64,000 nt of DNA. Origin: Omnitrophica bacterium GWA2_41_15. GTDB lineage: Bacteria; Omnitrophota; Gorgyraeia; Ghiorseimicrobiales; Ghiorseimicrobiaceae. This document shows, one piece after another, positions 5,189 through 53,687 of this stretch. Below the pieces are notes generated by a model, which was given only the letters and a program-made list of their open reading frames with translations, did no database searches and was not told where the DNA came from. The position numbers and the translations under genes were made by a program. The stretch spans positions 2,128 to 66,127 of the forward strand of contig CAKKQO010000023.1 in assembly GCA_919902105.1 (NCBI GenBank), in the 5' to 3' direction. Numbering within the stretch: position 1 is the stretch's first letter; the number at the start of each line of letters is the position of its first letter.

Positions 5189-5360
5189 ATAATGAAAATT
5201 TTATGCGCCGCACGGAAATTTTTTGCCGACTGCTGCGATTTACAACTCGCAAATTTGCCGAAATTCCCTTACGGTCAGTTTCGGCATTTACTCATTGTAA
5301 TCTCTGGCAGTCTTTTGCCAAAAAATTTCTAATTGTGCTTGCTCATAAAATTTTCATTAT
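5189..5360. repeat. About 172 nt whole-length imperfect hairpin element (element E)
   Basis: Perfect 17-bp terminal inverted repeat, ATAATGAAAATTTTATG (5189-5205) with CATAAAATTTTCATTAT (5344-5360). Inner arms are also complementary (GAAATTTTTTGCCGACTGC / GCAGTCTTTTGCCAAAAAATTTC). Central hairpin TGCCGAAA..TTTCGGCA. Confidence 0.8.
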
Positions 5361-6597: not shown

Positions 6598-6635
6598 GAC
6601 AGGAAATTTTCCTTAAAGCGTTTAATGCAAGCTTT

Positions 6636-6663
6636 AAAACGGGGGATAAAAATCCCCCGTTTT
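6636..6663 (+). terminator. Intrinsic terminator, bidirectional in appearance
   Basis: AAAACGGGGG-ATAAAAA-TCCCCCGTTTT: GC stem flanked by an A-run and a T-run. Confidence 0.65.
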
Positions 6664-6669
6664 GTTAAC

Positions 6670-6789
6670 CCCGTTAGAGATAACACATCTCACTAAGCAA
6701 GCGGGGTTTGATAATTATGGAAGCATGAGTTTTATCGAGCGCAGGATCTTAAAGAGACGGTCGTCTAAAGACGACCTATCTCTAACGGG
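6670..6789. repeat. 120-nt element closed by a perfect 13-bp inverted repeat
   Basis: CCCGTTAGAGATA (6670-6682) pairs with TATCTCTAACGGG (6777-6789). Internal hairpin GGTCGTC-TAAA-GACGACC (6759-6776). The element ends 7 nt before the uppS ATG. Confidence 0.7.
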
Positions 6790-6796
6790 ATAAAAT

Positions 6797-13467: not shown

Positions 13468-13476
13468 CTTAAATGA

Positions 13477-13537
13477 ACCCCGCCTTATAAGATACCGTAA
13501 AATTTTCTATCAATAATTTTACGGTATTCGGCGGGGT
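13477..13537. repeat. 61-nt compound hairpin between rimP and nusA
   Basis: Outer stem ACCCCGCC/GGCGGGGT. Inner perfect 13-bp stem ATACCGTAAAATT (13492-13504) / AATTTTACGGTAT (13515-13527). Confidence 0.8.
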
Positions 13538-13602
13538 CAATTCGCGCAAATAATTTACCTCAGTTTCACTTCTGTAAATTATGCGCTCATTGAGGGGGAA
13601 TA

Positions 13603-18749: not shown

Positions 18750-19817
18750 ATGCCAACAGGAAGAAAAAAAATACTCACAGATACTTCAGAAGTTAGCGCA
18801 CTCCCCTCAGATTTACTTTTAAAACAAGAGACCGATGAGGATATTGTTTTAAATCTTTCGCTTCGGCCTGCCAAATTATCTGAATTTGTCGGTCAGACCG
18901 GTACTGTAGAGAACTTAAAAATTGCAATTTGCGCCGCCAAAGAGCGCAAAGAGCCGCTGGAACATGTGTTTTTATCCGGGCCTCCGGGCTTGGGCAAAAC
19001 CGCGCTTTCCTATATTATCGCCCATGAGATGGGCACAAAGATTACCGCAACAAGCGGCCCTGCCATTGAGCGGGCAGGCGATTTAATCGGCATACTTACT
19101 AATTTAGAAAAAGGCGATATCCTTTTTATTGACGAGATTCACCGGATGTCTAAGGTAGCGGAGGAGTTTTTATATCCGGCAATGGAAAATTCGCAGATTG
19201 ATTTTATCGTAGATAAAGGCCCATATGCCCGCACCATAAAATTTAACTTAAAAAGGTTTACTCTTATTGGCGCTACCACCAGAAGCGGGCTTTTAAGTTC
19301 GGCGCTGCGTTCGCGTTTTGGCATATTTTACCATTTTGATTTTTATCCCCCTGAAGATTTAGCAAAAATTATCAAGCGCTCGGCGAAGCTTTTAGGCATA
19401 GATGTTAACGATGATGCCGCTTTAGAAATAGCACGGCGTTCGCGCGGCACCCCGCGTGTGGCTAACCGCCTGCTTCGGCGCGTGCGCGATTATGCGCAGG
19501 TAAAATCTAAAAGCAGCCTGATTACCCAGAAAATCGCCGATGAGTCGCTTTCCTGTTTAAGGATAGATAAAAACGGGCTTGATGAATGCGACCGCAAGGT
19601 CCTGCGCACGGTTATTGATGTTTATAGCGGCGGCCCCGTGGGTGTTGAGTCGCTTGCGGCAACACTTAACGAAGAGCAGGATACACTTATCGATACCGTA
19701 GAGCCGTATCTCTTAAAAGCCGGATACTTAAAGCGCACCTCGCGCGGACGCCTCGTTACAAAATTAGCCTACGAGCACCTCGGTGCCAAATACGATAAAC
19801 AGGAAGAGTTGTTCTAA
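18750..19817 (+). CDS. ruvB: Holliday junction branch-migration helicase RuvB
   Basis: LRP..L.EFVGQ, Walker [14 protein letters not shown], sensor [15 protein letters not shown]. Confidence 0.95.
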
Positions 19818-19992
19818 TTTTTTAACGGGTCCTGTCAAGGTTGTGCTTTCGCAAAAACGCTCGGTTTTCTCCAGCGAAGAAAACCTTCGCTCGGCAGTCG
19901 GCGTGCGCTCTGCCGATTTTCATCGGCAGCCATGTCCGCTTTGCGCCTCCTACGTTTTGCTTAAAGCACAAACCTTGCCACCCGCTAAAAAA
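19818..19992. repeat. About 175 nt whole-length imperfect hairpin element (element D)
   Basis: Begins on the base after the ruvB stop. Arms TTTTTTAACGGGT..CAAGGTTGTGCTTT..AAAACG and CGTTTTGC..AAAGCACAAACCTTG..ACCCGCTAAAAAA. Internal hairpins GGTTTTC..GAAAACC and CTGCCGAT-TTTC-ATCGGCAG. Confidence 0.8.
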
Positions 19993-20005
19993 TTGTTAAT
20001 GTATT

Positions 20006-20044
20006 TTGCTAAATCGTCAATTCGCTCAACCGACACAACAATAT
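20006..20044 (+). repeat. Solo 3'-arm-like fragment of the about 208 nt element family
   Basis: TTGCTAAATCGTCAATTCGCTCAACCGACACAACAATAT resembles the 3' arms TTGCTAAAATTGCAATGCGTTCAAGCGACACAATATAT (copy A) and GGCTAAAATTGCAATTCGCTCAAATGACACAGC (copy B). Confidence 0.6.
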
Positions 20045-20201
20045 CCTCTTAGAATATATTTAGCAGAGAAAAAGCGAACTCCGTTTATTAATTGTTACAT
20101 ATAAATATATTAAGGGGGGCGAGATGGAACGAAGGGAAGAGGGACACTCCTTGTAACATATTGTAAATTATAAGGTTACCATTATATTTATAGGTTTATA
20201 A

Positions 20202-21125: not shown

Positions 21126-22288
21126 AAAAATTTAATAATTATAAGTTACGAGTTATAAGTTTAATTATTTTTTTGTTTTTAACTTATCACTTATCACTTA
21201 TCACTTATAATTATTCCTATGCCCAGCCGCAGAAAAGCCGCAATGTGCGCGTGCTCATTCTTAAAGGGGCAGAAAAATTTGACCTCTACATCAGAGGAAA
21301 ATATGAAATACGGTCACCGGACGGGAAAAATGTTATTAAAGAGGGTAAAGGTATAAATGCGAAGGTTTATGCTGATAATAACGCGATAAATATTTCCGAT
21401 ATTCGTATAAATGAAAATAAAATTATAATCTCTCCAGAGTCAGGGATTTTTTATCTCAATAATCGCCCCTTACGCGGCGGGCTAATTGTAAAAAAAGAAA
21501 ATGACTTAACTTTATTAGTAATCAATTATTTAGATTTAGAAGATTATGTTAAAGGGGTTCTTTTCCATGAAGTTTCGCATCACTGGCCGATTGAGGCGAT
21601 TAAGGCGCAGGCAATAGCCACGCGCACGTATGTGCTTTATCAGGTAGAGGTGAGTAAAGATAAAGACTACGATGTAACCAGCGATATTTATTCGCAAGTA
21701 TATGGCGGCAAAGACGCGGAAAGATACCGTACCATTAAGGCGGCAGAGGAAACTGAAGGCGTGGTCTTAACTTGTAAAGCTAAAGTTTTTCCGGCTTATT
21801 TTCATGCTACCTGCGGCGGGAAAACCGAAGATGCAAGCGAATTATGGCAGACAGACCTGCCTGCCTTAAAAGGCGTTGATTGCGGTTTCTGTTTTAAGTC
21901 ACCGCATTTTAAATGGCAGAAGGTATTTAGCAAAGATGAGCTTATAAAAAGGTTAAATTCTTCAGGGTATCGCTTTACTTCTTTAGAGGGCATCCAAATA
22001 TTAGGCCGCGACAAATCAGGCAGAATCAGAAAACTAAAGTTAAAGTCAAAAGATGGTGACGTGTTTATTCCTGCGAAAGATTTCCGCCAGCTCGTAGGCA
22101 CAAGAGTTATCCGTTCTACTAACTTTGCTGTAAATAAATCCGCAGATAATATCTATTTTGAGGGCTTTGGCTGGGGCCATGGCGTGGGGATGTGCCAGTG
22201 GGGGGCATATTTTATGAGCATTAAAAAATATAAGTATCAGGATATCCTTAAGTTTTATTACCCCGGAGCAGAAATAGAGAAAATATGA
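21110..22288 (+). CDS. SpoIID/LytB-domain protein (peptidoglycan remodelling)
   Basis: Motifs LEDYVKGVL..E, AIKAQAIATRTY, CGG.TED, and C-terminal GHGVGMCQWGA. The N-terminal hydrophobic segment is encoded by repeat DNA, so the start is uncertain (TTG 21104 or ATG 21110). Confidence 0.85.
   Translation: MVPSIKKFNNYKLRVISLIIFLFLTYHLSLITYNYSYAQPQKSRNVRVLILKGAEKFDLYIRGKYEIRSPDGKNVIKEGKGINAKVYADNNAINISDIRINENKIIISPESGIFYLNNRPLRGGLIVKKENDLTLLVINYLDLEDYVKGVLFHEVSHHWPIEAIKAQAIATRTYVLYQVEVSKDKDYDVTSDIYSQVYGGKDAERYRTIKAAEETEGVVLTCKAKVFPAYFHATCGGKTEDASELWQTDLPALKGVDCGFCFKSPHFKWQKVFSKDELIKRLNSSGYRFTSLEGIQILGRDKSGRIRKLKLKSKDGDVFIPAKDFRQLVGTRVIRSTNFAVNKSADNIYFEGFGWGHGVGMCQWGAYFMSIKKYKYQDILKFYYPGAEIEKI
21134..21215. 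repeat. Inverted-repeat plus heptamer-tandem block at the 5' end of the SpoIID-like gene
   Basis: AATAATTATAAGT (21134-21146) pairs with ACTTATAATTATT (21203-21215). ACTTATC x3 tandem at 21182-21202. AAGTTAC GAGTTAT AAGTTTA heptamers. Confidence 0.75.
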
Positions 22289-22301
22289 AGTTTTACTAGA
22301 A

Positions 22302-22506
22302 ATATATTATGTCGTTTTCACTTAGATGCAATTTTTTAACGCAAAGGTCTTTCACAATTTCGGTGGCTGCGGAACTCGTTCTTCGGCACCTTCGTGCCAA
22401 GAATGAACTCAAACATCCTCGCCACCCCGATATAGACCATCGGGGTTCCCGCAATTCCTCAAGCTGCTTTGCTAAAATTGCAATGCGTTCAAGCGACACA
22501 ATATAT
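22302..22506 (+). repeat. About 205 nt whole-length hairpin element, family copy A
   Basis: Terminal arms ATATATTATGTCG / CGACACAATATAT. Shared core CTGCGGAACTCGTTCTTCGGCACCTTCGTGCCAAGAATGAACTCAAACAT. Internal hairpin CCCCGAT..ATCGGGG. Confidence 0.9.
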
Positions 22507-22532
22507 TTCTTCTAATAAATTAATTAAAAAAT

Positions 22533-23558
22533 ATGAAACTCTCCGATTTTGATTACAATTTGCCTAAAGAATTAATCGCTCAGTATCCGTCAAATGTGCG
22601 TGATGCCAGCCGCCTTTTGGTAGTAGATAGAAAAAATGAAAGTATTGCGCATAAAAAATTTTCCCGGATACTGGAATATTTTAATCCGGGGGACCTGCTG
22701 GTTTTAAATAACAGTAAAGTTCTGCCGGCACGTGTATTCGGCAGAAGAGAAAAAACCGGAGCAAAAATAGAATTTTTGTTAATTAAAAAAGAAGGCGGCA
22801 CTTTTTCGGTAATGGTAAAACCGGCAAAAAAATTTCAAATCGGAGAAAACATTGTTTTTGGCGAAAATAACGGCGGGCTTTATGCAAAAATAGTAGATAA
22901 AAATAAAATTGCTTTTGAGAGAGGTAATCCCGATGAAATTTATAAGCTCGGAACAATGCCGCTTCCCCCATATATTAAAAGGAATTCCGAAGGATTAGAT
23001 TTTGAAAGGTATCAGACAGTTTTTGCTAAAATTCCCGGTTCAATTGCCGCCCCAACCGCGGGGTTACATTTTAGTAAAGAGCTATTAGGCGAAATTAAGG
23101 ATAGAGCCGTAGAGGTTAACTATGTTACTTTACATGTGGGTGTGGGGACATTTAAGCCGGTAAAGACAGAAGATGTCGCTAAACATAAAATGGAGCCGGA
23201 ATTTTTTGAAATAGGCCCAGAGTTGATAGGAAGTATAAAAAAAGCAAAAAAACAAAAAGGGCGTATTTTTTCCGTAGGGACTACCAGCTGCCGTGTTATC
23301 GAAACAATAACAGAATTACCTATTGTCCATGACTTATCACCTGTAACCCATTCAGGATTTACTAATCTATTTATCTATCCCGGATATAGCTTTAAAGCGG
23401 TAGATTGCCTTTTGACTAATTTTCATTTACCTAAGACCACGCTTTTTATGCTGGTTTGCGCTTTCGCCGGCCGCGAGTTAATTATGCGGGCTTATCAGGA
23501 GGCGATAGAAGAAAAATACCGTTTCTACAGTTACGGCGATGCGATGTTGATAGTGTGA
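22533..23558 (+). CDS. queA: S-adenosylmethionine:tRNA ribosyltransferase-isomerase
   Basis: MKLSDFDY.LP..LIAQ.P, PARL-like, TAGLHF, VGTTS.R..E motifs; 341 aa. Confidence 0.95.
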   Translation: MKLSDFDYNLPKELIAQYPSNVRDASRLLVVDRKNESIAHKKFSRILEYFNPGDLLVLNNSKVLPARVFGRREKTGAKIEFLLIKKEGGTFSVMVKPAKKFQIGENIVFGENNGGLYAKIVDKNKIAFERGNPDEIYKLGTMPLPPYIKRNSEGLDFERYQTVFAKIPGSIAAPTAGLHFSKELLGEIKDRAVEVNYVTLHVGVGTFKPVKTEDVAKHKMEPEFFEIGPELIGSIKKAKKQKGRIFSVGTTSCRVIETITELPIVHDLSPVTHSGFTNLFIYPGYSFKAVDCLLTNFHLPKTTLFMLVCAFAGRELIMRAYQEAIEEKYRFYSYGDAMLIV

Positions 23559-23574
23559 CGATATTGTTGAGAAA

Positions 23575-23630
23575 CGTAAAACTGATGGAATTTCTTATTG
23601 TGTGCTTTCAGAAATTCCATCAGTTTTGCG
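23575..23630 (+). repeat. 21-bp stem hairpin after queA
   Basis: CGTAAAACTGATGGAATTTCT - 14-nt loop - AGAAATTCCATCAGTTTTGCG. The single non-Watson-Crick position is a T:G pair on the + strand. Confidence 0.85.
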
Positions 23631-23681
23631 TACCTCTATAATCTTTAACAGAGCCGAACAGGCTGATTTTGTGAGGGGGTA

Positions 23682-27276: not shown

Positions 27277-28971
27277 ATGCTAAGCGATATTGAGATAGCA
27301 CAGGCGGCAAAACTAAAGCCAGTCCAGAAAATAGCCGCATCTATCGGTATCAAAGAAACCGATTTGGAACTATACGGAAAGTATAAAGCTAAAGTTCTGC
27401 CCACTGCTTTAAAAAAGATAAAGACTAAAAGGCAGGCGAAATATGTTTTAGTTACAGCAATTACGCCTACGCCCTTAGGTGAGGGTAAAACCGTAACCAC
27501 TATTGGCCTATCCATGGCGCTAAATAGGATAGGCAAAAAAGCTATTGCTTGTATCCGCCAGCCGTCGCTTGGCCCAGTCTTTGGGATTAAAGGAGGGGCG
27601 GCCGGAGGCGGGTATTCGCAGGTAGTGCCGATGGAAGATTTTAACCTGCATTTAACCGGCGATGTGCATGCCGTAGGACTTGCGCATAATTTATGCGCCG
27701 CTTTTTTGGAGAACGCTTTATTCAGGAAAAAACTTAATATTGACCATAAAGCCGTTTTTTGGCGAAGAGTTCTAGATGTAAGCGACAGGTCATTACGTAA
27801 AATCAGCGTTGGTTTAGATGATAAGGTAGATGGGGTTTATCCCAGAGAGACCGGTTTTGATATTACAGTGGCGTCTGAAATAATGGCAATTTTAGCGCTT
27901 TCAAGTGATCTCCAGGATTTACGCCGTCGTCTCGGCAGGATTGTCTTAGCCAAGACTTTTGACGGTAAATATGTTACCCCTGAAGATTTAAAGGTTGCCG
28001 GCTCAATGGCAGCGCTTTTAAAAGACGCGGTGCACCCAAATTTAATGCAGACTTTGGATAATACTCCTGTCTTTGTGCATGCCGGGCCGTTTGCCAATAT
28101 CGCGCATGGAAATAGCTCTATTATCGCCGATAAAATCGCGGTAAGTTTAGCGGATTTTGTAGTAACAGAGGCAGGCTTTGGCGCAGACTGCGGGGCAGAG
28201 AAATTTTTTGATATTAAATGCCGCGTCAGCGGCCTTAAGCCGGATGCGGCAGTTTTAGTCTGCACCGTGCGCGCCTTAAAAATGCACTCTGGTAAATTTA
28301 CGGTTAAGCCGGGCAAGCCGCTTGATGAGGGATTACTCCGTGAGAATCTTCCTGCTATTAGAGAGGGTGCTGCAAACTTAGAAAAACAGATTGAGAATAT
28401 TAAAATTTTTGGTATCCCGGTTGTAGTGACGATTAACAGATTCTCCGCCGATACAGATAAAGAAATCGCCTTAATTAAAGAGATTGCCAAAAATGCCGGA
28501 GCCGAAGATGCGATAGTTAGTGATTTATTCGCCAAGGGCTCAAAAGGCGGAGAGGAATTAGCCGAGAAGATAGTTGAAGTCTCCAAGAAAAAAGCGAATT
28601 TTAAATTTCTTTATGAACTGGATAGCACGATTGAAGAAAAGATGTGGGTAATTGCTACCAAGATTTACGGGGCAAAGGATATTGATATTTCGCCGAAAGC
28701 TTTAGAACAGATAGAAGAATTTAATAAATTAGGTTTTAATGGGCTTCCTCTGTGTATGGCAAAGACGCATTTGTCGCTTTCGCATGACCCGGAATTAAAA
28801 GGACGGCCGAAAGACTTTGTCGTGCCAATCCGCGAAATAAAAGTCTCTGCGGGTGCCGGATTTTTATACGCGCTCTTAGGCGATATGCGCACTATGCCGG
28901 GGTTGCCTTCTGTTCCGGCAGGGACAAAGATAGATATTGATAAAGATGGAAAGATAGTGGGATTGTCATAA
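27277..28971 (+). CDS. fhs: Formate-tetrahydrofolate ligase
   Basis: SDIEIAQ, TPTPLGEGKTT, GIKGGAAGGGY, and PLCMAKT.LS.S near the C-terminus; 564 aa. Confidence 0.97.
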   Translation: MLSDIEIAQAAKLKPVQKIAASIGIKETDLELYGKYKAKVLPTALKKIKTKRQAKYVLVTAITPTPLGEGKTVTTIGLSMALNRIGKKAIACIRQPSLGPVFGIKGGAAGGGYSQVVPMEDFNLHLTGDVHAVGLAHNLCAAFLENALFRKKLNIDHKAVFWRRVLDVSDRSLRKISVGLDDKVDGVYPRETGFDITVASEIMAILALSSDLQDLRRRLGRIVLAKTFDGKYVTPEDLKVAGSMAALLKDAVHPNLMQTLDNTPVFVHAGPFANIAHGNSSIIADKIAVSLADFVVTEAGFGADCGAEKFFDIKCRVSGLKPDAAVLVCTVRALKMHSGKFTVKPGKPLDEGLLRENLPAIREGAANLEKQIENIKIFGIPVVVTINRFSADTDKEIALIKEIAKNAGAEDAIVSDLFAKGSKGGEELAEKIVEVSKKKANFKFLYELDSTIEEKMWVIATKIYGAKDIDISPKALEQIEEFNKLGFNGLPLCMAKTHLSLSHDPELKGRPKDFVVPIREIKVSAGAGFLYALLGDMRTMPGLPSVPAGTKIDIDKDGKIVGLS

Positions 28972-29180
28972 GATAGCTGCTGTATCATTTTCGCTCAGGT
29001 GCAATTTTTATACGCCAAGTTCTCGGCATTTTAAGCGCCTGCGTAACTCGTTCTTCGGCACTTTCGTGCCAGGAATGAACTCAAACATACTCGGCGTCCC
29101 GCTCTCTGAGCGGGATGCCTTAAAATGCCTGTGCGTGCTTGGCTAAAATTGCAATTCGCTCAAATGACACAGCAGCTATC
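28972..29180 (+). repeat. 209 nt whole-length hairpin element, family copy B
   Basis: Perfect terminal arms GATAGCTGCTGT / ACAGCAGCTATC. Sub-terminal GGCATTTTAAG / CTTAAAATGCC. Shared core CTGCGTAACTCGTTCTTCGGCACTTTCGTGCCAGGAATGAACTCAAACAT. Hairpin CCCGCTC-TCTG-AGCGGG. Confidence 0.9.
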
Positions 29181-29188
29181 TAAACAAA

Positions 29189-29662
29189 ATGATGTACAAG
29201 AATCAATCTCTTAAAAAATATCTCGATGATTTGGCGGGAAAGCTGCCCGCACCCGGAGGAGGTAGTGCCGCCGCCCTTAGCGGCGCTTTGGGTTGCGCGC
29301 TTTTGTCAATGGTATCTAACTTTACCGTTGGCAAAGAAAAATACAGGAAATACGAAAAAGAAATAAAAGGTATTTTATTAAAGTGCGAGAGTTATAGGAA
29401 AAGGTTTTTGGAGTTAGTGGATTTAGATGTTAAAACATATTCAGCTTATGCTAACGCTAAAGACAAAAAATCTAAAAGTATGGCGAAAAAAGAATCGCAG
29501 AGAGTAGCTAAAGAAATTAACTCTTTAAGTTATAAAGCAATACAATTATGTTTTCCTTTGGCGGAAAAAGGCAATATATATTTGATAAATGATGTCTTAG
29601 CCGGCGCGGAACTTTTGAGCGCCGCCTTTAATGCGGCGTTGATTAACATAGAAGCCGAATAA
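29189..29662 (+). CDS. fchA: Cyclodeaminase/cyclohydrolase-family protein (methenyl-THF cyclohydrolase FchA-like)
   Basis: LPAPGGGSAAALSGALGCALLSMV signature. Sits between fhs and folD. At 157 aa it is shorter than typical family members. Confidence 0.75.
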   Translation: MMYKNQSLKKYLDDLAGKLPAPGGGSAAALSGALGCALLSMVSNFTVGKEKYRKYEKEIKGILLKCESYRKRFLELVDLDVKTYSAYANAKDKKSKSMAKKESQRVAKEINSLSYKAIQLCFPLAEKGNIYLINDVLAGAELLSAAFNAALINIEAE

Positions 29663-41743: not shown

Positions 41744-41747
41744 GTGA

Positions 41748-41789
41748 GGACATAAGTTATGGAACGAAGTGAACATAACTTATTAGTCC
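41748..41789. repeat. CATAAGTTATG-type hairpin after rho
   Basis: GGACATAAGTTATG - 12-nt loop - CATAACTTATTAGTCC. Same motif type as 29813-29857. Confidence 0.8.
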
Positions 41790-41796
41790 AAACTTA

Positions 41797-41834
41797 CCCC
41801 CACTGCTTCGCTTTGCGAAGCAAAGCGGTGGGGG
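41797..41834. repeat. GC-capped long hairpin upstream of rpmE
   Basis: CCCCCACTGCTTCGC-TTTGC-GAAGCAAAGCGGTGGGGG. No T-run follows. Confidence 0.8.
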
Positions 41835-41850
41835 TCATTAAGGAGAAAAA

Positions 41851-42048
41851 ATGAAAGATAAAATTCATCCGAATTATCAGGATGCTTCAATTATCTGCGC
41901 TTGCGGCGAGATAATCCAGACGCGTTCGACTAAACAGAATATCCGTGTAGAAATCTGCTCTAAGTGCCACCCATTTTTTACGGGTAGGCAGAAATTTGTC
42001 GATTCAGCGGGGAGAGTAGATAAGTTTATGAAGAAGTACAAAAAATGA
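41851..42048 (+). CDS. rpmE: 50S ribosomal protein L31 (Cys-containing form)
   Basis: MKDKIHP.Y start, CxC ... [10 protein letters not shown]. Confidence 0.95.
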
Positions 42049-42049
42049 T

Positions 42050-45215: not shown

Positions 45216-45779
45216 GTGATTCTCATGATTGATAATTACGACTCATTTACTTATAACCTCGTTCAGTATTTAGGAGAATTAGGAGGGGACCTGCGTATAT
45301 TCCGCAATGATAAATTAACAATTTCTCAAATAAAAAAAATAAAACCTAAAAAAATCGTTATTTCTCCCGGCCCTGGTAGGCCATCTGATGCCGGGATTTC
45401 TTGCGCGGTAATAGAGCAATTTGCCAAGACCATACCTATCTTAGGTGTATGCTTGGGGCATCAATGTATAGGCGATGTTTTCGGCGGAAAAATCATCCGT
45501 GCGGATAGGCTTATGCATGGAAAGACTTCGCTTATTTATCACAACGGAGAAGGCATTTTTAAAAATATTAAAAGTCCTTTTGAAGCAACGCGTTATCATT
45601 CTTTATTGGTTGAGAAAAAAAGCCTGCCCGGGGCTTTAGAGATTACCGCTTGGACTAAAGAAAATGAGATAATGGGGCTAAAACACAGAAATTTTCCCCT
45701 TTGGGGGGTACAGTTTCATCCGGAATCGATTTTAACCAAGCCGGGTAAAGAGATACTAAAGAATTTTTTGATGTTGTGA
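45216..45779 (+). CDS. trpG: Glutamine amidotransferase component II (anthranilate / aminodeoxychorismate synthase)
   Basis: IDNYDSFTYNL, GVCLGHQ (catalytic Cys), GVQFHPES. Start is GTG 45216 or ATG 45225. Confidence 0.9.
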   Translation: MILMIDNYDSFTYNLVQYLGELGGDLRIFRNDKLTISQIKKIKPKKIVISPGPGRPSDAGISCAVIEQFAKTIPILGVCLGHQCIGDVFGGKIIRADRLMHGKTSLIYHNGEGIFKNIKSPFEATRYHSLLVEKKSLPGALEITAWTKENEIMGLKHRNFPLWGVQFHPESILTKPGKEILKNFLML

Positions 45780-45789
45780 TACTATAAAG

Positions 45790-45997
45790 CAGGTTATTAT
45801 TCATTTTGAACGATTTGCAATTTTCGTCAGGAGTCGTAGAGATTTTAAGGTTCCCCGCCAACGGCGGGGCGCCGAGGACTGTCTGAATTCATTCCTGGCA
45901 CGGAACGTGCCGAAGAATGAGTTCCGCAGGTGCCTTAAAATATCGAGAAGCTGACGTTAAAAAATTGCATCAGAGTGAAAAATGACATAATAACATG
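45790..45997 (-). repeat. 208 nt whole-length hairpin element, family copy C (inverted relative to A and B)
   Basis: The reverse complement aligns with copies A and B: core CTGCGGAACTCATTCTTCGGCACGTTCCGTGCCAGGAATGAATTCAGACA, hairpin CCCCGCC-GTT-GGCGGGG, arms CAGGTTATTATTCATTTT.. / ..GAAAAATGACATAATAACATG. Confidence 0.9.
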
Positions 45998-46025
45998 CTG
46001 TATGCTATGATGATTAATTAGTTTT

Positions 46026-47072
46026 ATGCCTAAGATTACCGATTTAACTGAATTTCTAAACCGCGGCAAACTTCCGGATAAAAATCAGGTTCAGGATGTA
46101 TTTACCGATATTATGTCCGGTAAGGTGGAGACTGAAGATTTAAAGAAGTTCCTTTTAGCGCTGAAAGATAAAGAGACGCCTGAAATTATCGCTGGTGCGG
46201 CAAGCGCTATGCGGGATAAAATGGTAAAAATTAATGTGCGAACTTCTCCCGACGAAGTTGTTTTAGATACCTGCGGAACAGGCGGAGGCAGCTTTCATAC
46301 TTTTAATATTTCAACAGCCAGCGCTTTTGTGATTGCCGGATGCGGTATAAAAGTAGCCAAGCACGGAAACAGGGCGGTCTCAAGCCAGTTTGGAAGCGCC
46401 GATGTTTTAAAGGAATTAGGCTTGAATTTAGATTTGCCGCCGCAGAAGGCAGAGGCGATAATTAAGGAAATCGGCATAGGGTTTTTATTTGCGCCGCTTT
46501 ATCATCCGGCTATGAAATATGCTATAGAGGCACGTAAAGAACTCGCAACCCGCACTCTTTTTAATATCTTAGGCCCATTATGCAATCCGGCAGGAGCAGA
46601 TATCCAGATTGTCGGTGTTTATGAAGAAAGATTAAGCGAAATTTTAGCTCGCGCCTTAGGCGAATTAGGCGCAAGGCGCGCCTTTGTATTATATAGTGAC
46701 AAAGGGTTAGATGAGCTAAGCATTGAAGGAAAAACCAAGGCAGTTGAGCTGATAGATAAAAAAATTAGCCTTAAACCGAGGAAGATAGATATTAATTACC
46801 TTCGTCCGCAGGATTTTGGAGTTAAAGAGGGAACGTTGGCAGAACTTGCGCCGGGGAAAAATACAGAAGAAAATGCAAAGATACTTCTTGATATTTTAAA
46901 AGGAGAGGAATCTGCAAGAATCGATGCAGTATTAATAAATTCCGCCTTAGGGATTTTAGCCTCTGGCATTACCGATAATTTAAAAGATGGGGTAGGGCTA
47001 GCAAGGGAATCTATTGATTCGCAAAAAGCGCTTAAGAAATTAGAAACTTTAATTACGCGGTCAAATAAATAA
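46026..47072 (+). CDS. trpD: Anthranilate phosphoribosyltransferase
   Basis: DTCGTGGG, KHGNRAVSS..GSADVLE, and an NILGPL.NPA-like motif. Confidence 0.93.
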   Translation: MPKITDLTEFLNRGKLPDKNQVQDVFTDIMSGKVETEDLKKFLLALKDKETPEIIAGAASAMRDKMVKINVRTSPDEVVLDTCGTGGGSFHTFNISTASAFVIAGCGIKVAKHGNRAVSSQFGSADVLKELGLNLDLPPQKAEAIIKEIGIGFLFAPLYHPAMKYAIEARKELATRTLFNILGPLCNPAGADIQIVGVYEERLSEILARALGELGARRAFVLYSDKGLDELSIEGKTKAVELIDKKISLKPRKIDINYLRPQDFGVKEGTLAELAPGKNTEENAKILLDILKGEESARIDAVLINSALGILASGITDNLKDGVGLARESIDSQKALKKLETLITRSNK

Positions 47073-47851: not shown

Positions 47852-48462
47852 CGAAAGTAAAAATCTGCGGGATAACTAATTTAGCGGACGCGCGGGCATC
47901 AATAAATGCCGGCTGCGACGCGCTGGGATTTGTGTTTTTTAGAAAAAGCCCGCGCTATATTAAGCCTGCGAAAGCAAAAGCCATAATTAAAAATTTACCA
48001 AAAAATATTCTTAAGATTGGGGTGTTTGTAAATAGTAAAGAAAAAACAATAAAAAGAATTGCTAAATTTTGCGGCCTTGATATACTACAATTTCATGGGA
48101 ATGAATCTACGGAATTTTGCCGCAGATTTATAAGCTATAAGGTAATTAAGGCGATAAGAGTAAAGGATAAAGTAGATTTAAAGTATATTTTGAAGTATAA
48201 TCCTTTTGCCTATCTTTTTGATGCTTTTATGGAGTCAAAGCCCGGGGGGACAGGCAAAAAATTCGATTGGAGGTTTATAGGACATTTAGACGGTATAAAG
48301 AAACCGGTATTCCTTTCCGGCGGGCTTAGCGCAGATAATGTCAAAAAGGCGATAGAGATTGTTAACCCGGATTGGGTGGATGTTTCTAGTTCCGTAGAGG
48401 TAGGCCCAGGTAAAAAAGACCAGCGCAAACTGCTGGAGTTTGTAAGGAAAGTTAAGCTATGA
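47848..48462 (+). CDS. trpF: Phosphoribosylanthranilate isomerase
   Basis: VKICGIT, DALGFVF...SPR, LQFHGNE, LSGGL. TTG start overlapping the trpC stop. Confidence 0.9.
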   Translation: MTKVKICGITNLADARASINAGCDALGFVFFRKSPRYIKPAKAKAIIKNLPKNILKIGVFVNSKEKTIKRIAKFCGLDILQFHGNESTEFCRRFISYKVIKAIRVKDKVDLKYILKYNPFAYLFDAFMESKPGGTGKKFDWRFIGHLDGIKKPVFLSGGLSADNVKKAIEIVNPDWVDVSSSVEVGPGKKDQRKLLEFVRKVKL

Positions 48463-49220
48463 AGGAAAAATTTTTAATTATATTTTTTTCGTTAGCGTTT
48501 ATTTTTTTGGCGATATACTTTTTCCCCAGAAACTCGGCATTATCGCAATTGCCCGAGATAAATTCGGATAAAGTTAAGGCCTTAAAAGAAGAAATACTGC
48601 CTTTTGAGCAGGGCGAAACAATAAGCTATGCGGTAAAATTAGGCGGGATAAAGATCGGTAATGCCGAACTAACGTATAAGGGGAAGACTAAATTAAATGA
48701 TAAAGATGCGCACCTTATAATTTTTTCAACGGATACATTAAACTTTAAGGATACCGAAACTATGTATGCGGCTCTTGATACTTTTCTGCCTCTAAAAATT
48801 GAGCGGGATATCAATAAGTGGGGCAAAAAAATACGCATTGTTGAGGAATATGACCAGCTAAATCATAAAGTCAAAATCACCCAATTCGATAAAACGCGTA
48901 ACCAAACCAAGGAAATAGCGCAGGATGCTCAGATACAGAACGTAATACTCTTAACTTACTTCTTAAGAAAACTCTCTAACTTTGAGCTTGGCAGGGAGTT
49001 CGCTGTTACCCTGCCTTTGGCAAAATTAATTATGCGCTTTACTAAAGAGGAACAGGCCAGGATACCTTGCGGAGTATATCGCACATATTTGGCGGAAAGT
49101 TTCCCTAAAGGGCATAAGATTTGGTTTGAGTCCTCAGAAAAGGCAATCCCTATAAGAATATCCGGGCCATCTATCGCGGGTAAGGTTAATATGGTGATGA
49201 TGGACTATAAAGAGAGGTAA
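48459..49220 (+). CDS. Exported beta-rich protein, DUF3108-like, embedded in the trp operon
   Basis: N-terminal TM/signal segment. [24 protein letters not shown] resembles the start of DUF3108. ATGA overlap with trpF, and the gene ends 2 nt before trpB. Confidence 0.45.
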
Positions 49221-53482: not shown

Positions 53483-53687
53483 ATTTAAGAATTTAACTTA
53501 CAGAACAATAATGAATGTAAGTTGATTCTCCGAATTTATCCCCATTCGAAATTGGGAAGAAGGAATAACATATGACTCCTTGCTTAGGCGCTTGAAAATT
53601 TTTTGCTTCGCTTCAAAATTTTCTACGCAAGCTTCGGAGTTAAAATTACCCCGCCTTATGAGCGGGGAAATTTTAAGGAGGATTAAA

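What the first reader, a model, noticed from the sequence alone, without database searches (positions are those of the whole stretch)
45790..45997. Family copy C is inverted and separates trpG from trpD
The reverse complement of 45790-45997 aligns along its whole length with copies A and B.

The flanking genes run in the same direction as at the other two sites, so orientation relative to transcription is not conserved. That argues for a mobile, MITE-like origin rather than a strand-specific cis-regulator. Because the element is nearly palindromic, either orientation would still give a long RNA hairpin.

It creates a 246-nt gap inside what otherwise looks like a tightly coupled trp operon. It could act as a transcriptional or RNase III processing boundary between trpG and trpDCFBA.
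Basis: partly seen in the sequence, partly recalled or inferred. Interest (0 to 1): 0.7.

Follow-up and report, generated by a model that had tools for sequence, protein, structure and literature searches.

The report
Mobile palindromic repeat splitting trp operon
The 246-base gap between trpG and trpD holds one inverted copy of a roughly 200-base hairpin-forming repeat that has moved between operon junctions in a group of groundwater Omnitrophota bacteria; it is a new family of a familiar kind of small mobile DNA, not a strand-specific regulator.

Summary
Window 45783-46004 is a full, inverted copy (nhmmer E=3e-59) of a ~210-nt family. Other copies lie at 22298-22510 (A) and 28971-29181 (B), with a degenerate relative near 19815-20050. 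All flanking genes are on the + strand.

The genome is a Candidatus Omnitrophota MAG from Hainich groundwater. Related genomes show that the element is mobile:
- trpG and trpD abut (TAA then ATG, 0 nt) in two relatives, one of which carries the family elsewhere, between ribD and ribE.
- Two closer relatives carry a family copy at the same trpG-trpD junction in the opposite orientation.
- Site A is empty in three relatives, and copy A is flanked by a 10-bp duplication of the empty-site sequence.
- Site B is filled, empty or occupied by other palindromic families, depending on the lineage.

Pairing is strongly maintained: 90.8% of cells are paired and 36 of 64 pairs show double changes. It is almost all Watson-Crick, with no G·U strand bias (13 vs 9). 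Both strands fold (z about -7 to -8). There is no Rfam match, no terminator-like site in the element and no above-chance promoter signal.

Verdict: a new ERIC/Correia-like (MITE-like) intergenic repeat family. RNase III or mRNA-boundary effects are plausible but untested. One puzzle remains: copy B is 95% identical to its counterpart in a distant relative.

The parts
45783..46004 (-). Copy C of the palindromic repeat family. The family-sense strand is the window minus strand. It fills the trpG-trpD gap.
   Evidence: nhmmer E=2.9e-59; alignments A1-A4; folds.
45783..45852 (.). Left arm of copy C (window orientation). It holds the outer stem TATAAAGCAGGTTATTAT, an internal loop, the GCAATTTT stem and the ATTTTAAGG stem.
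   Evidence: MFE structure; consensus pairs.
45853..45869 (.). Internal hairpin hp2 of copy C (CCCCGCC AAC GGCGGGG). The stem sequence differs between copies but stays paired.
   Evidence: Helix 6; the alignment shows CCCCGAT/ATCGGGG, TCCCGCTC/GAGCGGGA and CTCCTCC/GGAGGAG variants.
45889..45920 (.). Internal hairpin hp1 of copy C (TCATTCCTGGCAC GGAAC GTGCCGAAGAATGA). This is a module replaced by unrelated hairpins in some relatives.
45921..46004 (.). Right arm of copy C (window orientation).
45216..45779 (+). trpG (glutamine amidotransferase, 187 aa by the public gene call), the upstream neighbour.
   Evidence: Pfam GATase 1.6e-59; gene call in L003.
46026..47072 (+). trpD (anthranilate phosphoribosyltransferase), the downstream neighbour.
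   Evidence: Pfam Glycos_transf_3 9.6e-80; 100% match to an NCBI Omnitrophota MAG protein.
22290..22527 (+). Copy A with the extra sequence it brought. The palindrome is 22298-22510. It lies between the SpoIID-domain gene and queA.
   Evidence: nhmmer E=9.4e-55; fold; empty sites in L018, L019 and L024.
22280..22289 (.). Left copy of the 10-bp direct repeat AAAATATGAA flanking copy A (target-site duplication; holds the SpoIID stop codon).
   Evidence: It matches the single ATATGAA stop/start overlap in the empty sites of relatives.
22528..22537 (.). Right copy of the 10-bp direct repeat AAAATATGAA (holds the queA start codon).
28971..29181 (+). Copy B, between fhs (formate-tetrahydrofolate ligase) and an FTCD_C cyclodeaminase gene.
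   Evidence: nhmmer E=8.2e-63; fold -93 to -100 kcal/mol; positional counterpart in L018.
19815..20050 (+). Degenerate or composite relative D. It has an AATTTTTTAACG...GCTAAAAAATT closing stem with different contents, followed by an orphan 3'-arm-like segment.
   Evidence: nhmmer hit at 19991-20042, E=9.5e-4; sequence; fold.

Best explanation
Copy C is one member of a family of non-coding, ~200-210-nt, almost fully palindromic interspersed repeats. They are mobile, or were until recently, in a clade of groundwater Candidatus Omnitrophota.

Each copy folds, as DNA or as RNA from either strand, into a long AT-rich closing stem with conserved internal loops. The stem encloses two GC-rich hairpins, giving a Y shape.

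In this lineage the element entered a trpG|trpD junction that was originally tight (TAA followed directly by ATG). It sits there in the orientation opposite to copies A and B. Orientation does not matter to the element, because what is maintained is Watson-Crick self-complementarity of the DNA, not a one-strand RNA.

The orientation may have been set at insertion. Alternatively the core may have flipped later, between the inverted outer stems.

Shown: family membership, structure, covariation, presence/absence differences between relatives, a target duplication at copy A, and mixed orientation.

Inferred: the element is co-transcribed with the trp operon and puts a roughly 100-bp imperfect hairpin into the mRNA. 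That would remove trpG-trpD translational coupling and could serve as an RNase III or stability site, as a by-product of insertion rather than its cause. The mobilising enzyme is unknown.
For: Family and structure:
- Three full copies and one degenerate copy occur in 64 kb.
- Further members lie at other operon junctions in related genomes: ribD-ribE in JAUXSB01, radical-SAM-hemB in Ga0210019, upstream of MTHFR in ERZ21828306, and fhs-FTCD in JAUXSB01.
- On 8 copies, 90.8% of cells are paired, against 33-50% when partners are slid. 36 of 64 pairs have double changes, and 0 of 500 shuffles reach this.

Presence/absence differences:
- trpG and trpD are contiguous in L010 and L012. The CG11 outgroup has an unrelated 68-nt spacer there.
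- Site A is empty in L018, L019 and L024.
- Site B is empty in L024, L025 and L026.

Duplications: AAAATATGAA (10 bp) flanks copy A and equals the empty-site sequence. By my reading of the printed sequence, ATAAATATG (9 bp) flanks the L014 copy.

Orientation:
- Sense to transcription at A, B/L018, L014/L015, L016 and L019. Antisense at C and L001.
- Both orientations occur at the trpG-trpD junction itself.
- The flanks of C and L015 align in direct orientation, while the core aligns better reversed: 116 vs 101 of 170.

Strand neutrality: 431 Watson-Crick cells, 13 G·U in sense and 9 A·C (which would be G·U in antisense). Both strands fold strongly in every copy.

Neutral decay where testable: the L014 and L015 copies are 82-83% identical, equal to trpD fourfold-site identity of 82%.

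Not a known RNA: no Rfam match for the whole window at gathering scores, and no credible match at copy C at E<=10.

Five independent Logan assemblies break at the same point inside copy C. I read this as breaks caused by repeated sequence, which is an inference.
Against: - The termini, which are the best-conserved part of a transposase-driven MITE, are here the least conserved part. They differ between copies while staying self-complementary.
- No target duplication is discernible at copy C, and only TAA is repeated at copy B.
- No transposase or parent IS with matching ends was found. Only about 330 kb of these genomes could be examined, and the plasmid, phage and E. coli collections gave no match.
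- Copies within the window are old (64-68% identity in the arms), so there is no sign of a recent burst.
- Copy B is 95% identical to its counterpart in a genome whose fourfold sites are only 40-58% identical. A purely selfish, neutrally decaying element does not predict this.
- Internal hairpins keep pairing through compensatory changes. That implies a single-stranded form matters to something, whether transposition or the host.
Confidence: 0.75

Rival explanations
1. Domesticated operon punctuation. The elements began as mobile DNA but are kept by the host because the co-transcribed hairpin, in either orientation, acts as an RNase III, RNase E or exonuclease-barrier site. That would set different mRNA levels for the genes on either side (trpG vs trpDCFBA, fhs vs FTCD-folD).
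For: - All 7 independent sites lie between co-directional genes inside operons.
- Pairing is maintained through many compensatory changes.
- Copy B is 95% identical across genomes with 40-58% fourfold-site identity, as a local identity peak confined to the element.
- The fhs-FTCD junction has been filled by three different palindromic families of similar architecture in different lineages.
- RNase III cleavage of Correia repeats and orientation-dependent RNase E effects of ERIC repeats are documented (PMC10969869, PMC2229807).
Against: - The same junctions are empty and tightly coupled in close relatives, so the hairpin is dispensable.
- The L014 and L015 copies evolve at the synonymous rate.
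- 57 of 59 genes in the window are co-directional, so an intra-operon position is expected by chance.
- No expression data are available.
Confidence: 0.15
2. Site-specific (homing) element that inserts into the centre of short pre-existing palindromes. The locus-specific outer stems would then be the two halves of the target rather than part of the element.
For: - L025, the closest relative by fhs fourfold-site identity (0.85), has at site B only GATATAGCATATATC. This is exactly the two outer-stem halves of the L018 copy joined together.
- Outer stems are copy-specific yet self-complementary at every locus.
- Independent recent insertions of the same subtype into this target would explain both the 95% identity and the patchy distribution of copy B.
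Against: - At sites A and C the empty junctions of relatives contain no such palindrome, so the outer stems arrived with the insert.
- The L025 15-mer can equally be the footprint of a palindrome-stimulated deletion of the interior.
- No enzyme is known for this.
Confidence: 0.07
3. Strand-specific structured RNA, such as a cis-regulator, attenuator or small RNA gene, whose copies regulate the adjacent genes.
For: - Very stable, conserved three-way-junction fold with conserved unpaired motifs: CTCAAACA between the hairpins, and TCGCTCA on both arms in direct orientation, which gives the element a polarity.
Against: - Two of seven sites are antisense to transcription, and both orientations occur at the trpG-trpD junction.
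- There is no G·U over A·C excess on either strand.
- Neighbouring genes are functionally unrelated: trp, folate/C1, queuosine, riboflavin and haem.
- Presence or absence varies between close relatives.
- No Rfam family matches, and no terminator-like or above-chance promoter signal was found.
Confidence: 0.03

Closest known systems
ERIC / IRU (enterobacterial repetitive intergenic consensus, 127-bp imperfect palindromes)
   Same: Both are small, non-coding, almost fully palindromic units. Both sit in intergenic, co-transcribed positions inside operons and occur in either orientation. Family sequence is conserved across species while chromosomal locations differ. A long stem-loop forms in the mRNA (PMC2229807, PMC10969869).
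   Different: There is no sequence similarity: blastn of copy C against 5,426 E. coli genomes finds nothing. This family is in a different phylum and is longer (~210 nt). It has two internal hairpins, one of which is an exchangeable module. ERIC is listed with a TSD and 5'-TA-3' at its termini (PMC2229807, Table 1), whereas here 9-10-bp duplications are seen at two copies.
Correia / NEMIS elements of Neisseria
   Same: Both are MITE-like repeats of 100-155 bp or more that are co-transcribed with neighbouring genes. Correia hairpins are cut by RNase III, which changes mRNA levels (PMC10969869, PMC2229807).
   Different: Correia elements have well-conserved TIRs of about 24 bp, a TSD with 5'-TA-3' at the termini, and an optional IHF site (PMC2229807). 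Here the termini vary between copies, no TA duplication is seen, and RNase III processing is untested.
BOX elements and BIMEs (mosaic modular repeats of pneumococcus and enterobacteria)
   Same: Both have a modular build. Here a conserved frame carries an internal module (hp1) that is swapped for unrelated hairpins in different copies.
   Different: The modules here are nested within one large palindrome rather than strung in tandem. There is no sequence relationship. The description of BOX and BIME structure is from my own knowledge and was not checked here.
Small hairpin-flanked inversions (flip-flop of sequences between inverted repeats, e.g. in chloroplast intergenic hairpins)
   Same: The core of the element at the trpG-trpD junction is reversed between lineages, while the flanks stay in the same orientation.
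   Different: Inversion in situ is not proven here. Independent insertion or replacement remains possible. The comparison rests on my own knowledge of that literature.

Membership tests
Prokaryotic MITE (non-autonomous class II element) | Small (about 50-800 bp) and without a transposase gene | tested here: met
   The element is 210-240 nt. By my reading of the sequences, short ATG-initiated frames are not conserved between copies (10, 23 and 22 codons with different ends). Size range from PMC11602168.
Prokaryotic MITE (non-autonomous class II element) | Terminal inverted repeats of at least 10-15 bp | tested here: inconclusive
   Every copy has 13-20 bp of complementary termini. However, the terminal sequences differ between copies, unlike TIRs recognised by a single transposase.
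Prokaryotic MITE (non-autonomous class II element) | Target-site duplication of 2-10 bp flanking the insert | tested here: inconclusive
   Copy A is flanked by a 10-bp AAAATATGAA duplication that matches the empty site. L014 is flanked by 9-bp ATAAATATG. Copy B has only TAA on both sides. No duplication is discernible at copy C.
Prokaryotic MITE (non-autonomous class II element) | Multiple dispersed copies with presence/absence differences between related genomes | tested here: met
   Seven independent sites were found. Empty orthologous junctions exist for sites A, B and C.
Prokaryotic MITE (non-autonomous class II element) | A cognate autonomous IS or transposase with matching ends | not testable with these tools
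   Whole genomes of these MAGs could not be scanned. No transposase family appears in the Pfam annotations of the genes listed for the fetched loci. The plasmid and phage collections gave no match.
ERIC | Sequence homology to the enterobacterial 127-bp consensus | tested here: not met
   blastn with word size 11 of copy C against all complete E. coli genomes, which carry ERIC copies, finds no match at E<=0.01.
Correia / NEMIS | Conserved ~24-bp TIRs with a TSD and 5'-TA-3' at the termini | tested here: not met
   Termini vary between copies. The duplications seen are 9-10 bp, not TA. Feature list from PMC2229807, Table 1.
REP / BIME (RAYT-associated) | 20-40-bp palindromes with a GTAG or CGTC head | tested here: not met
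   The element is about 210 nt, and I see no GTAG or CGTC head at the ends of the sequences. Definition from PMC3733652.
IS200/IS605-derived palindromic elements | No target duplication and strand-specific insertion | tested here: not met
   Copy A has a 10-bp duplication. Both orientations occur on one replichore with uniform GC skew. The defining features are from my own knowledge.
Any curated RNA family (Rfam 15) | Match to a covariance model at its gathering score | tested here: not met
   There were 0 matches in the whole window at gathering scores. At copy C, only chance-level matches appeared at E<=10.

The most novel reading that the evidence does not exclude
The family is more than junk. 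At least the fhs-FTCD copy (B) is either held under very strong purifying selection or belongs to a site-specific element that homes to a conserved 15-nt palindrome. It is 95% identical to its positional counterpart although fourfold-degenerate codon sites in the flanking genes are only 40-58% identical. More generally, these Y-shaped palindromes, whose cores may flip in place, could serve as interchangeable punctuation of operons such as Wood-Ljungdahl/C1 and trp in ultra-small Omnitrophota.
Probability: 0.15. Interest if true: 0.55.

Novelty: new member of a known kind. Interest (0 to 1): 0.3.

Why it matters
Small palindromic repeats of the ERIC, Correia and BOX type are known mainly from cultured Proteobacteria and Firmicutes. 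I found no description of one in Omnitrophota: three full-text searches brought nothing, and a 2024 survey of MITEs across 183,232 genomes does not mention the phylum.

For this window, the result means the trpG-trpD gap is a recent insertion. It is not an attenuator, a promoter region or a missing gene.

More broadly, the elements explain repeat-induced contig breaks in assemblies of these genomes. They also mark operon junctions as insertion hot spots; three families have used the fhs-FTCD junction.

They provide natural before-and-after pairs for asking how a 100-bp hairpin inside a polycistronic mRNA affects expression in streamlined bacteria.

The unusually conserved copy B and the exchangeable internal hairpin are the only features that go beyond the textbook picture.

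Tried and rejected
- **Rfam.** I scanned the whole window at gathering thresholds and copy C at E<=10. Nothing credible matched.
- **tRNA/tmRNA.** None found in the window.
- **First collection pattern.** The pattern built on hairpin hp1 (TTCTTCGGCACN{3,5}GTGCCARGAAT) was too narrow, because hp1 turned out to be a variable module. It gave one true locus and one chance hit in the genome collection and none in metagenomes. A 5'-arm pattern found three more loci and none in viral contigs.
- **Coding potential.** Reading the sequences, the short ATG-initiated frames inside the element are not conserved between copies. Rejected.
- **Outward promoter.** The element end supplies ATGACA as a -35, followed 18 nt later by TATGAT before trpD. 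The count equals the shuffle expectation, and by inspection the arrangement is absent at other copies. Rejected.
- **Intrinsic terminator.** There is no T-run after any stem in the element.
- **Choosing an RNA strand by folding energy.** The family-antisense strand is 0-10 kcal/mol more stable in every copy. G·U versus A·C counts show no bias, so I attribute the difference to composition.
- **Integron attC, retron ncRNA and IS200/IS605 ends.** Considered from memory and rejected. No adjacent integrase or reverse transcriptase is annotated, the housekeeping genes are not cassettes, and copy A has a 10-bp duplication.
- **Recent recombination tract as the reason for copy B's conservation.** The sliding identity peak is confined to the element, so this is not supported.
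- **Known mobile DNA.** blastn against plasmids, phages and E. coli genomes found no match.
- **Literature.** Searches for Omnitrophota repeats or RNA motifs found nothing relevant.

Full report
**1. The observation**

The window has about 40% GC and uniformly positive GC skew. In my crude ORF map, 57 of 59 genes are on the + strand.

The repeat finder links 22355-22429 with 29027-29101 as direct repeats. It links both of these with 45903-45981 as inverted repeats.

MAFFT aligns 22290-22520, 28960-29195 and the reverse complement of 45780-46010 along their whole length, with 79% mean column identity. A profile HMM of the family hits:
- copy C at 45996-45791 on the minus strand, E=2.9e-59;
- copy B at E=8e-63;
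- copy A at E=9e-55;
- a weak partial match at 19991-20042, E=9.5e-4. This lies in a longer, degenerate palindrome I call D.

The neighbours were identified by Pfam:
- A lies between a SpoIID-domain gene and queA.
- B lies between fhs and an FTCD_C cyclodeaminase gene.
- C lies between trpG and trpD. aroA lies upstream of trpG; trpC, trpF, a DUF3108 gene, trpB and trpA lie downstream of trpD.

All of these genes are on the + strand. The trpG-trpD gap is 246 nt. The palindrome is slightly longer than stated, at 45783-46004.

**2. Anatomy**

Every copy folds into the same Y shape:
- an outer stem of 13-20 bp;
- an internal loop;
- a 9-bp stem (U)GCAAUUUU/AAAAUUGC(A);
- two further stems;
- two hairpins, hp1 and hp2, separated by a conserved unpaired CTCAAACA.

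Both strands fold far better than shuffled sequence. For copy C the values are -80.5 kcal/mol (z -7.0) and -71.6 kcal/mol (z -7.9).

On eight full copies from five genomes, 90.8% of pair cells form standard pairs, against 33-50% when partners are slid. Thirty-six of 64 pairs show changes on both sides. None of 500 shuffles reaches these values.

Pairing is overwhelmingly Watson-Crick, at 431 of 489 cells. G·U pairs number 13 in the family-sense strand. A·C oppositions, which would be G·U on the other strand, number 9. What is conserved is therefore DNA-level self-complementarity, equally good on either strand.

The element is not perfectly symmetric. Both arms carry TCGCTCA in direct orientation, which gives it a polarity.

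No Rfam family matches. There are no tRNAs. No terminator-like site lies in the element. The one promoter-like match at its 3' edge is no more than shuffles give.

**3. Source and relatives**

TrpD is identical to a protein of a Candidatus Omnitrophota MAG. The exact gene lies on Hainich groundwater contigs such as ERZ1292641 Hain_H51.

Five independent Logan assemblies of this strain all break at the same base inside copy C. I read this as repeat-induced breaks, which is an inference.

Pattern scans and protein-anchored look-ups gave further family members:

| Locus | Source | Junction | Orientation to transcription |
|---|---|---|---|
| L001 | JAUXSB010000014.1, GCA_030681595.1 | ribD-ribE | antisense |
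| L014 | TrpD 84% identical to the window's | trpG-trpD | sense |
| L015 | TrpD 84% identical to the window's | trpG-trpD | sense |
| L016 | Ga0210019 | radical-SAM gene-hemB (truncated copy) | sense |
| L018 | GCA_030681595.1 | fhs-FTCD | sense |
| L019 | ERZ21828306 | upstream of MTHFR | sense |

**4. Evidence of mobility**

*Site C (trpG-trpD).* In GCA_030681595.1 (L010) and ERZ21828306 (L012), where TrpD is 75-76% identical, the trpG stop TAA is followed directly by the trpD ATG. The first of these genomes carries the family elsewhere. A CG11 outgroup has an unrelated 68-nt spacer.

*Site A (SpoIID-queA).* In L018, L019 and L024 the two genes overlap; in L019 the overlap is ATGA. In the window, the 10-mer AAAATATGAA occurs on both sides of the insert, at 22280-22289 and 22528-22537. 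The left copy provides the SpoIID stop and the right copy the queA start. This is a classical target-site duplication. A 9-mer, ATAAATATG, likewise flanks the L014 copy.

*Site B (fhs-FTCD).* The state varies by lineage:
- a family-1 copy in the window and in L018;
- a different palindromic family in the Hain_H41 strain (L020-L022), which also occurs in the window near 5190-5350;
- a third family in L019;
- an unrelated 83-nt spacer in L028;
- a 1-nt gap in L026 and an 11-nt spacer in L024;
- only GATATAGCATATATC in L025, which is the two outer-stem halves of the L018 copy joined together.

*Orientation.* Across seven independent sites, five copies are sense and two antisense to transcription. 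Both orientations occur at the trpG-trpD junction itself.

The flanks of the window copy and the L015 copy align in direct orientation, while the core aligns better reversed (116 vs 101 of 170 positions). This is compatible with inversion of the core between the outer inverted repeats. It is also compatible with replacement or independent insertion.

**5. Neutral or selected?**

The L014 and L015 copies are 82-83% identical, which equals the fourfold-site identity of their trpD genes (82%). That fits neutral decay. Paralogues within the window are only 64-68% identical in the arms, so they are old.

Copy B is an exception. Outside hp1 it is 95% identical to the L018 copy, whereas the flanking genes are 40-58% identical at fourfold sites. 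The identity peak is confined to the element. hp1 is completely replaced, and the outer stem shows paired AGCT/ATAT changes on both arms.

By fhs fourfold-site identity, L025 (0.85) and L021 (0.77) are closer to the window than L018 is (0.58). Neither L025 nor L021 has the B copy. Strong selection, recent independent homing into a conserved 15-nt palindrome, and deletion footprints all remain possible. I leave this unexplained.

**6. Mechanism**

*Best-supported reading (confidence 0.75).* This is a non-autonomous mobile palindromic repeat that is indifferent to orientation. It landed in a tight trpG|trpD junction in this lineage.

*Shown:* family membership, structure, covariation, presence/absence differences, a duplication at copy A, mixed orientation and absence of strand bias.

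*Inferred:* co-transcription with the trp operon, formation of a roughly 100-bp imperfect hairpin in the mRNA, loss of stop/start coupling, and possible RNase III or stability effects. The last is by analogy with Correia and ERIC repeats (PMC10969869, PMC2229807).

*Unknown:* the enzyme that moves the element.

*Against a textbook MITE:* the termini vary between copies, no duplication is visible at copy C, and internal hairpins covary.

*Rivals:*
- a host-retained punctuation element (0.15);
- homing into short palindromes (0.07);
- a strand-specific RNA regulator (0.03). This last is contradicted by the mixed orientation, the absence of G·U bias, the unrelated neighbouring pathways and the empty junctions.

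**7. Comparison with known families**

The family behaves like ERIC/IRU and Correia/NEMIS repeats, and its exchangeable hp1 recalls mosaic BOX/BIME repeats. It is not a member of any of them:
- It has no similarity to E. coli genomes, which contain ERIC and REP copies.
- It has no match in plasmids or phages.
- It has no TA duplication and no GTAG/CGTC-headed 20-40-bp unit (definition from PMC3733652).

Three full-text searches found no description of such repeats in Omnitrophota, and a 2024 MITE survey does not mention the phylum.

**8. Verdict**

This is a real feature, correctly observed and largely correctly interpreted. It is a new family of a well-known kind. The inverted copy in the trp operon is ordinary behaviour for such repeats.

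Interest is modest (0.3). It is raised slightly by the over-conserved copy B, the modular hairpin and the possible in-place flipping.

Noticed in passing
window 28971-29181 vs L018 9794-9989: Copy B is 95% identical, outside hairpin hp1, to the copy at the same fhs-FTCD junction in a genome whose flanking genes are only 40-58% identical at fourfold sites. hp1 is replaced by an unrelated hairpin. Closer relatives lack the copy. This suggests either selection or recent homing.
   Followed up: partly
L025 3395-3417 (fhs-FTCD junction): The closest relative has only GATATAGCATATATC at site B. This is exactly the two outer-stem halves of the L018 copy joined. It is either the pre-insertion target palindrome or a deletion footprint.
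   Followed up: partly
window about 5190-5350; L020 1364-1566: A second palindromic repeat family has the same architecture: a GGAAAUUUUUUGCC...GGCAAAAAAUUUC closing stem plus internal hairpins. It occupies the fhs-FTCD junction in the Hain_H41 strain and another junction in the window (83-90% identity).
   Followed up: partly
L019 9872-10000; L012 14369-14415: A third palindromic family (GAATGACGAAT type) sits at fhs-FTCD and also between trpB and trpA in ERZ21828306. The trp operon of that relative is therefore interrupted at a different junction.
   Followed up: no
window 22372-22377 and 22405-22410 (copy A); the same spot in other copies: Hairpin hp1 is flanked by a direct repeat, GAACTC. 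Other copies carry unrelated hairpins at exactly this position (GCCC TTAAAT GGGC in L014/L015; CCCCACACCCAG TACA CTGGGTGTGGGG in L018). This looks like a nested or exchangeable module.
   Followed up: no
window 19815-20050: A degenerate or composite relative of the family. It has a related closing stem with different contents, followed by an orphan 3'-arm-like segment. A spurious 89-aa ORF (19783-20052) overlaps it.
   Followed up: partly
window 48459-49220: A DUF3108 gene sits inside the trp operon between trpF and trpB, and this is conserved in relatives L010, L012 and L023. trpG follows aroA directly, with no trpE beside it.
   Followed up: no
window intergenic gaps (e.g. 6598-6796, 13468-13602, 23559-23681): Nine of the 15 intergenic gaps of at least 100 nt in my crude ORF map fold with z of -5.8 or lower. 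This includes a 33-nt, 85%-complementary inverted repeat just after queA (23563-23642). One of the nine, 41744-42049, actually contains the rpmE gene.
   Followed up: no
L016 10380-10560 (minus strand): A truncated family copy (5' half only) is followed by a tandem duplication of about 95 nt of unrelated sequence, between a radical-SAM gene and hemB.
   Followed up: no
window 53590-53680: A structured leader with an AAAATTTT-type stem and a CCCCGCC...GGCGGGG hairpin lies just upstream of a DUF5679 gene. It gave only a weak profile hit to the family's 5' arm (E=0.34).
   Followed up: no
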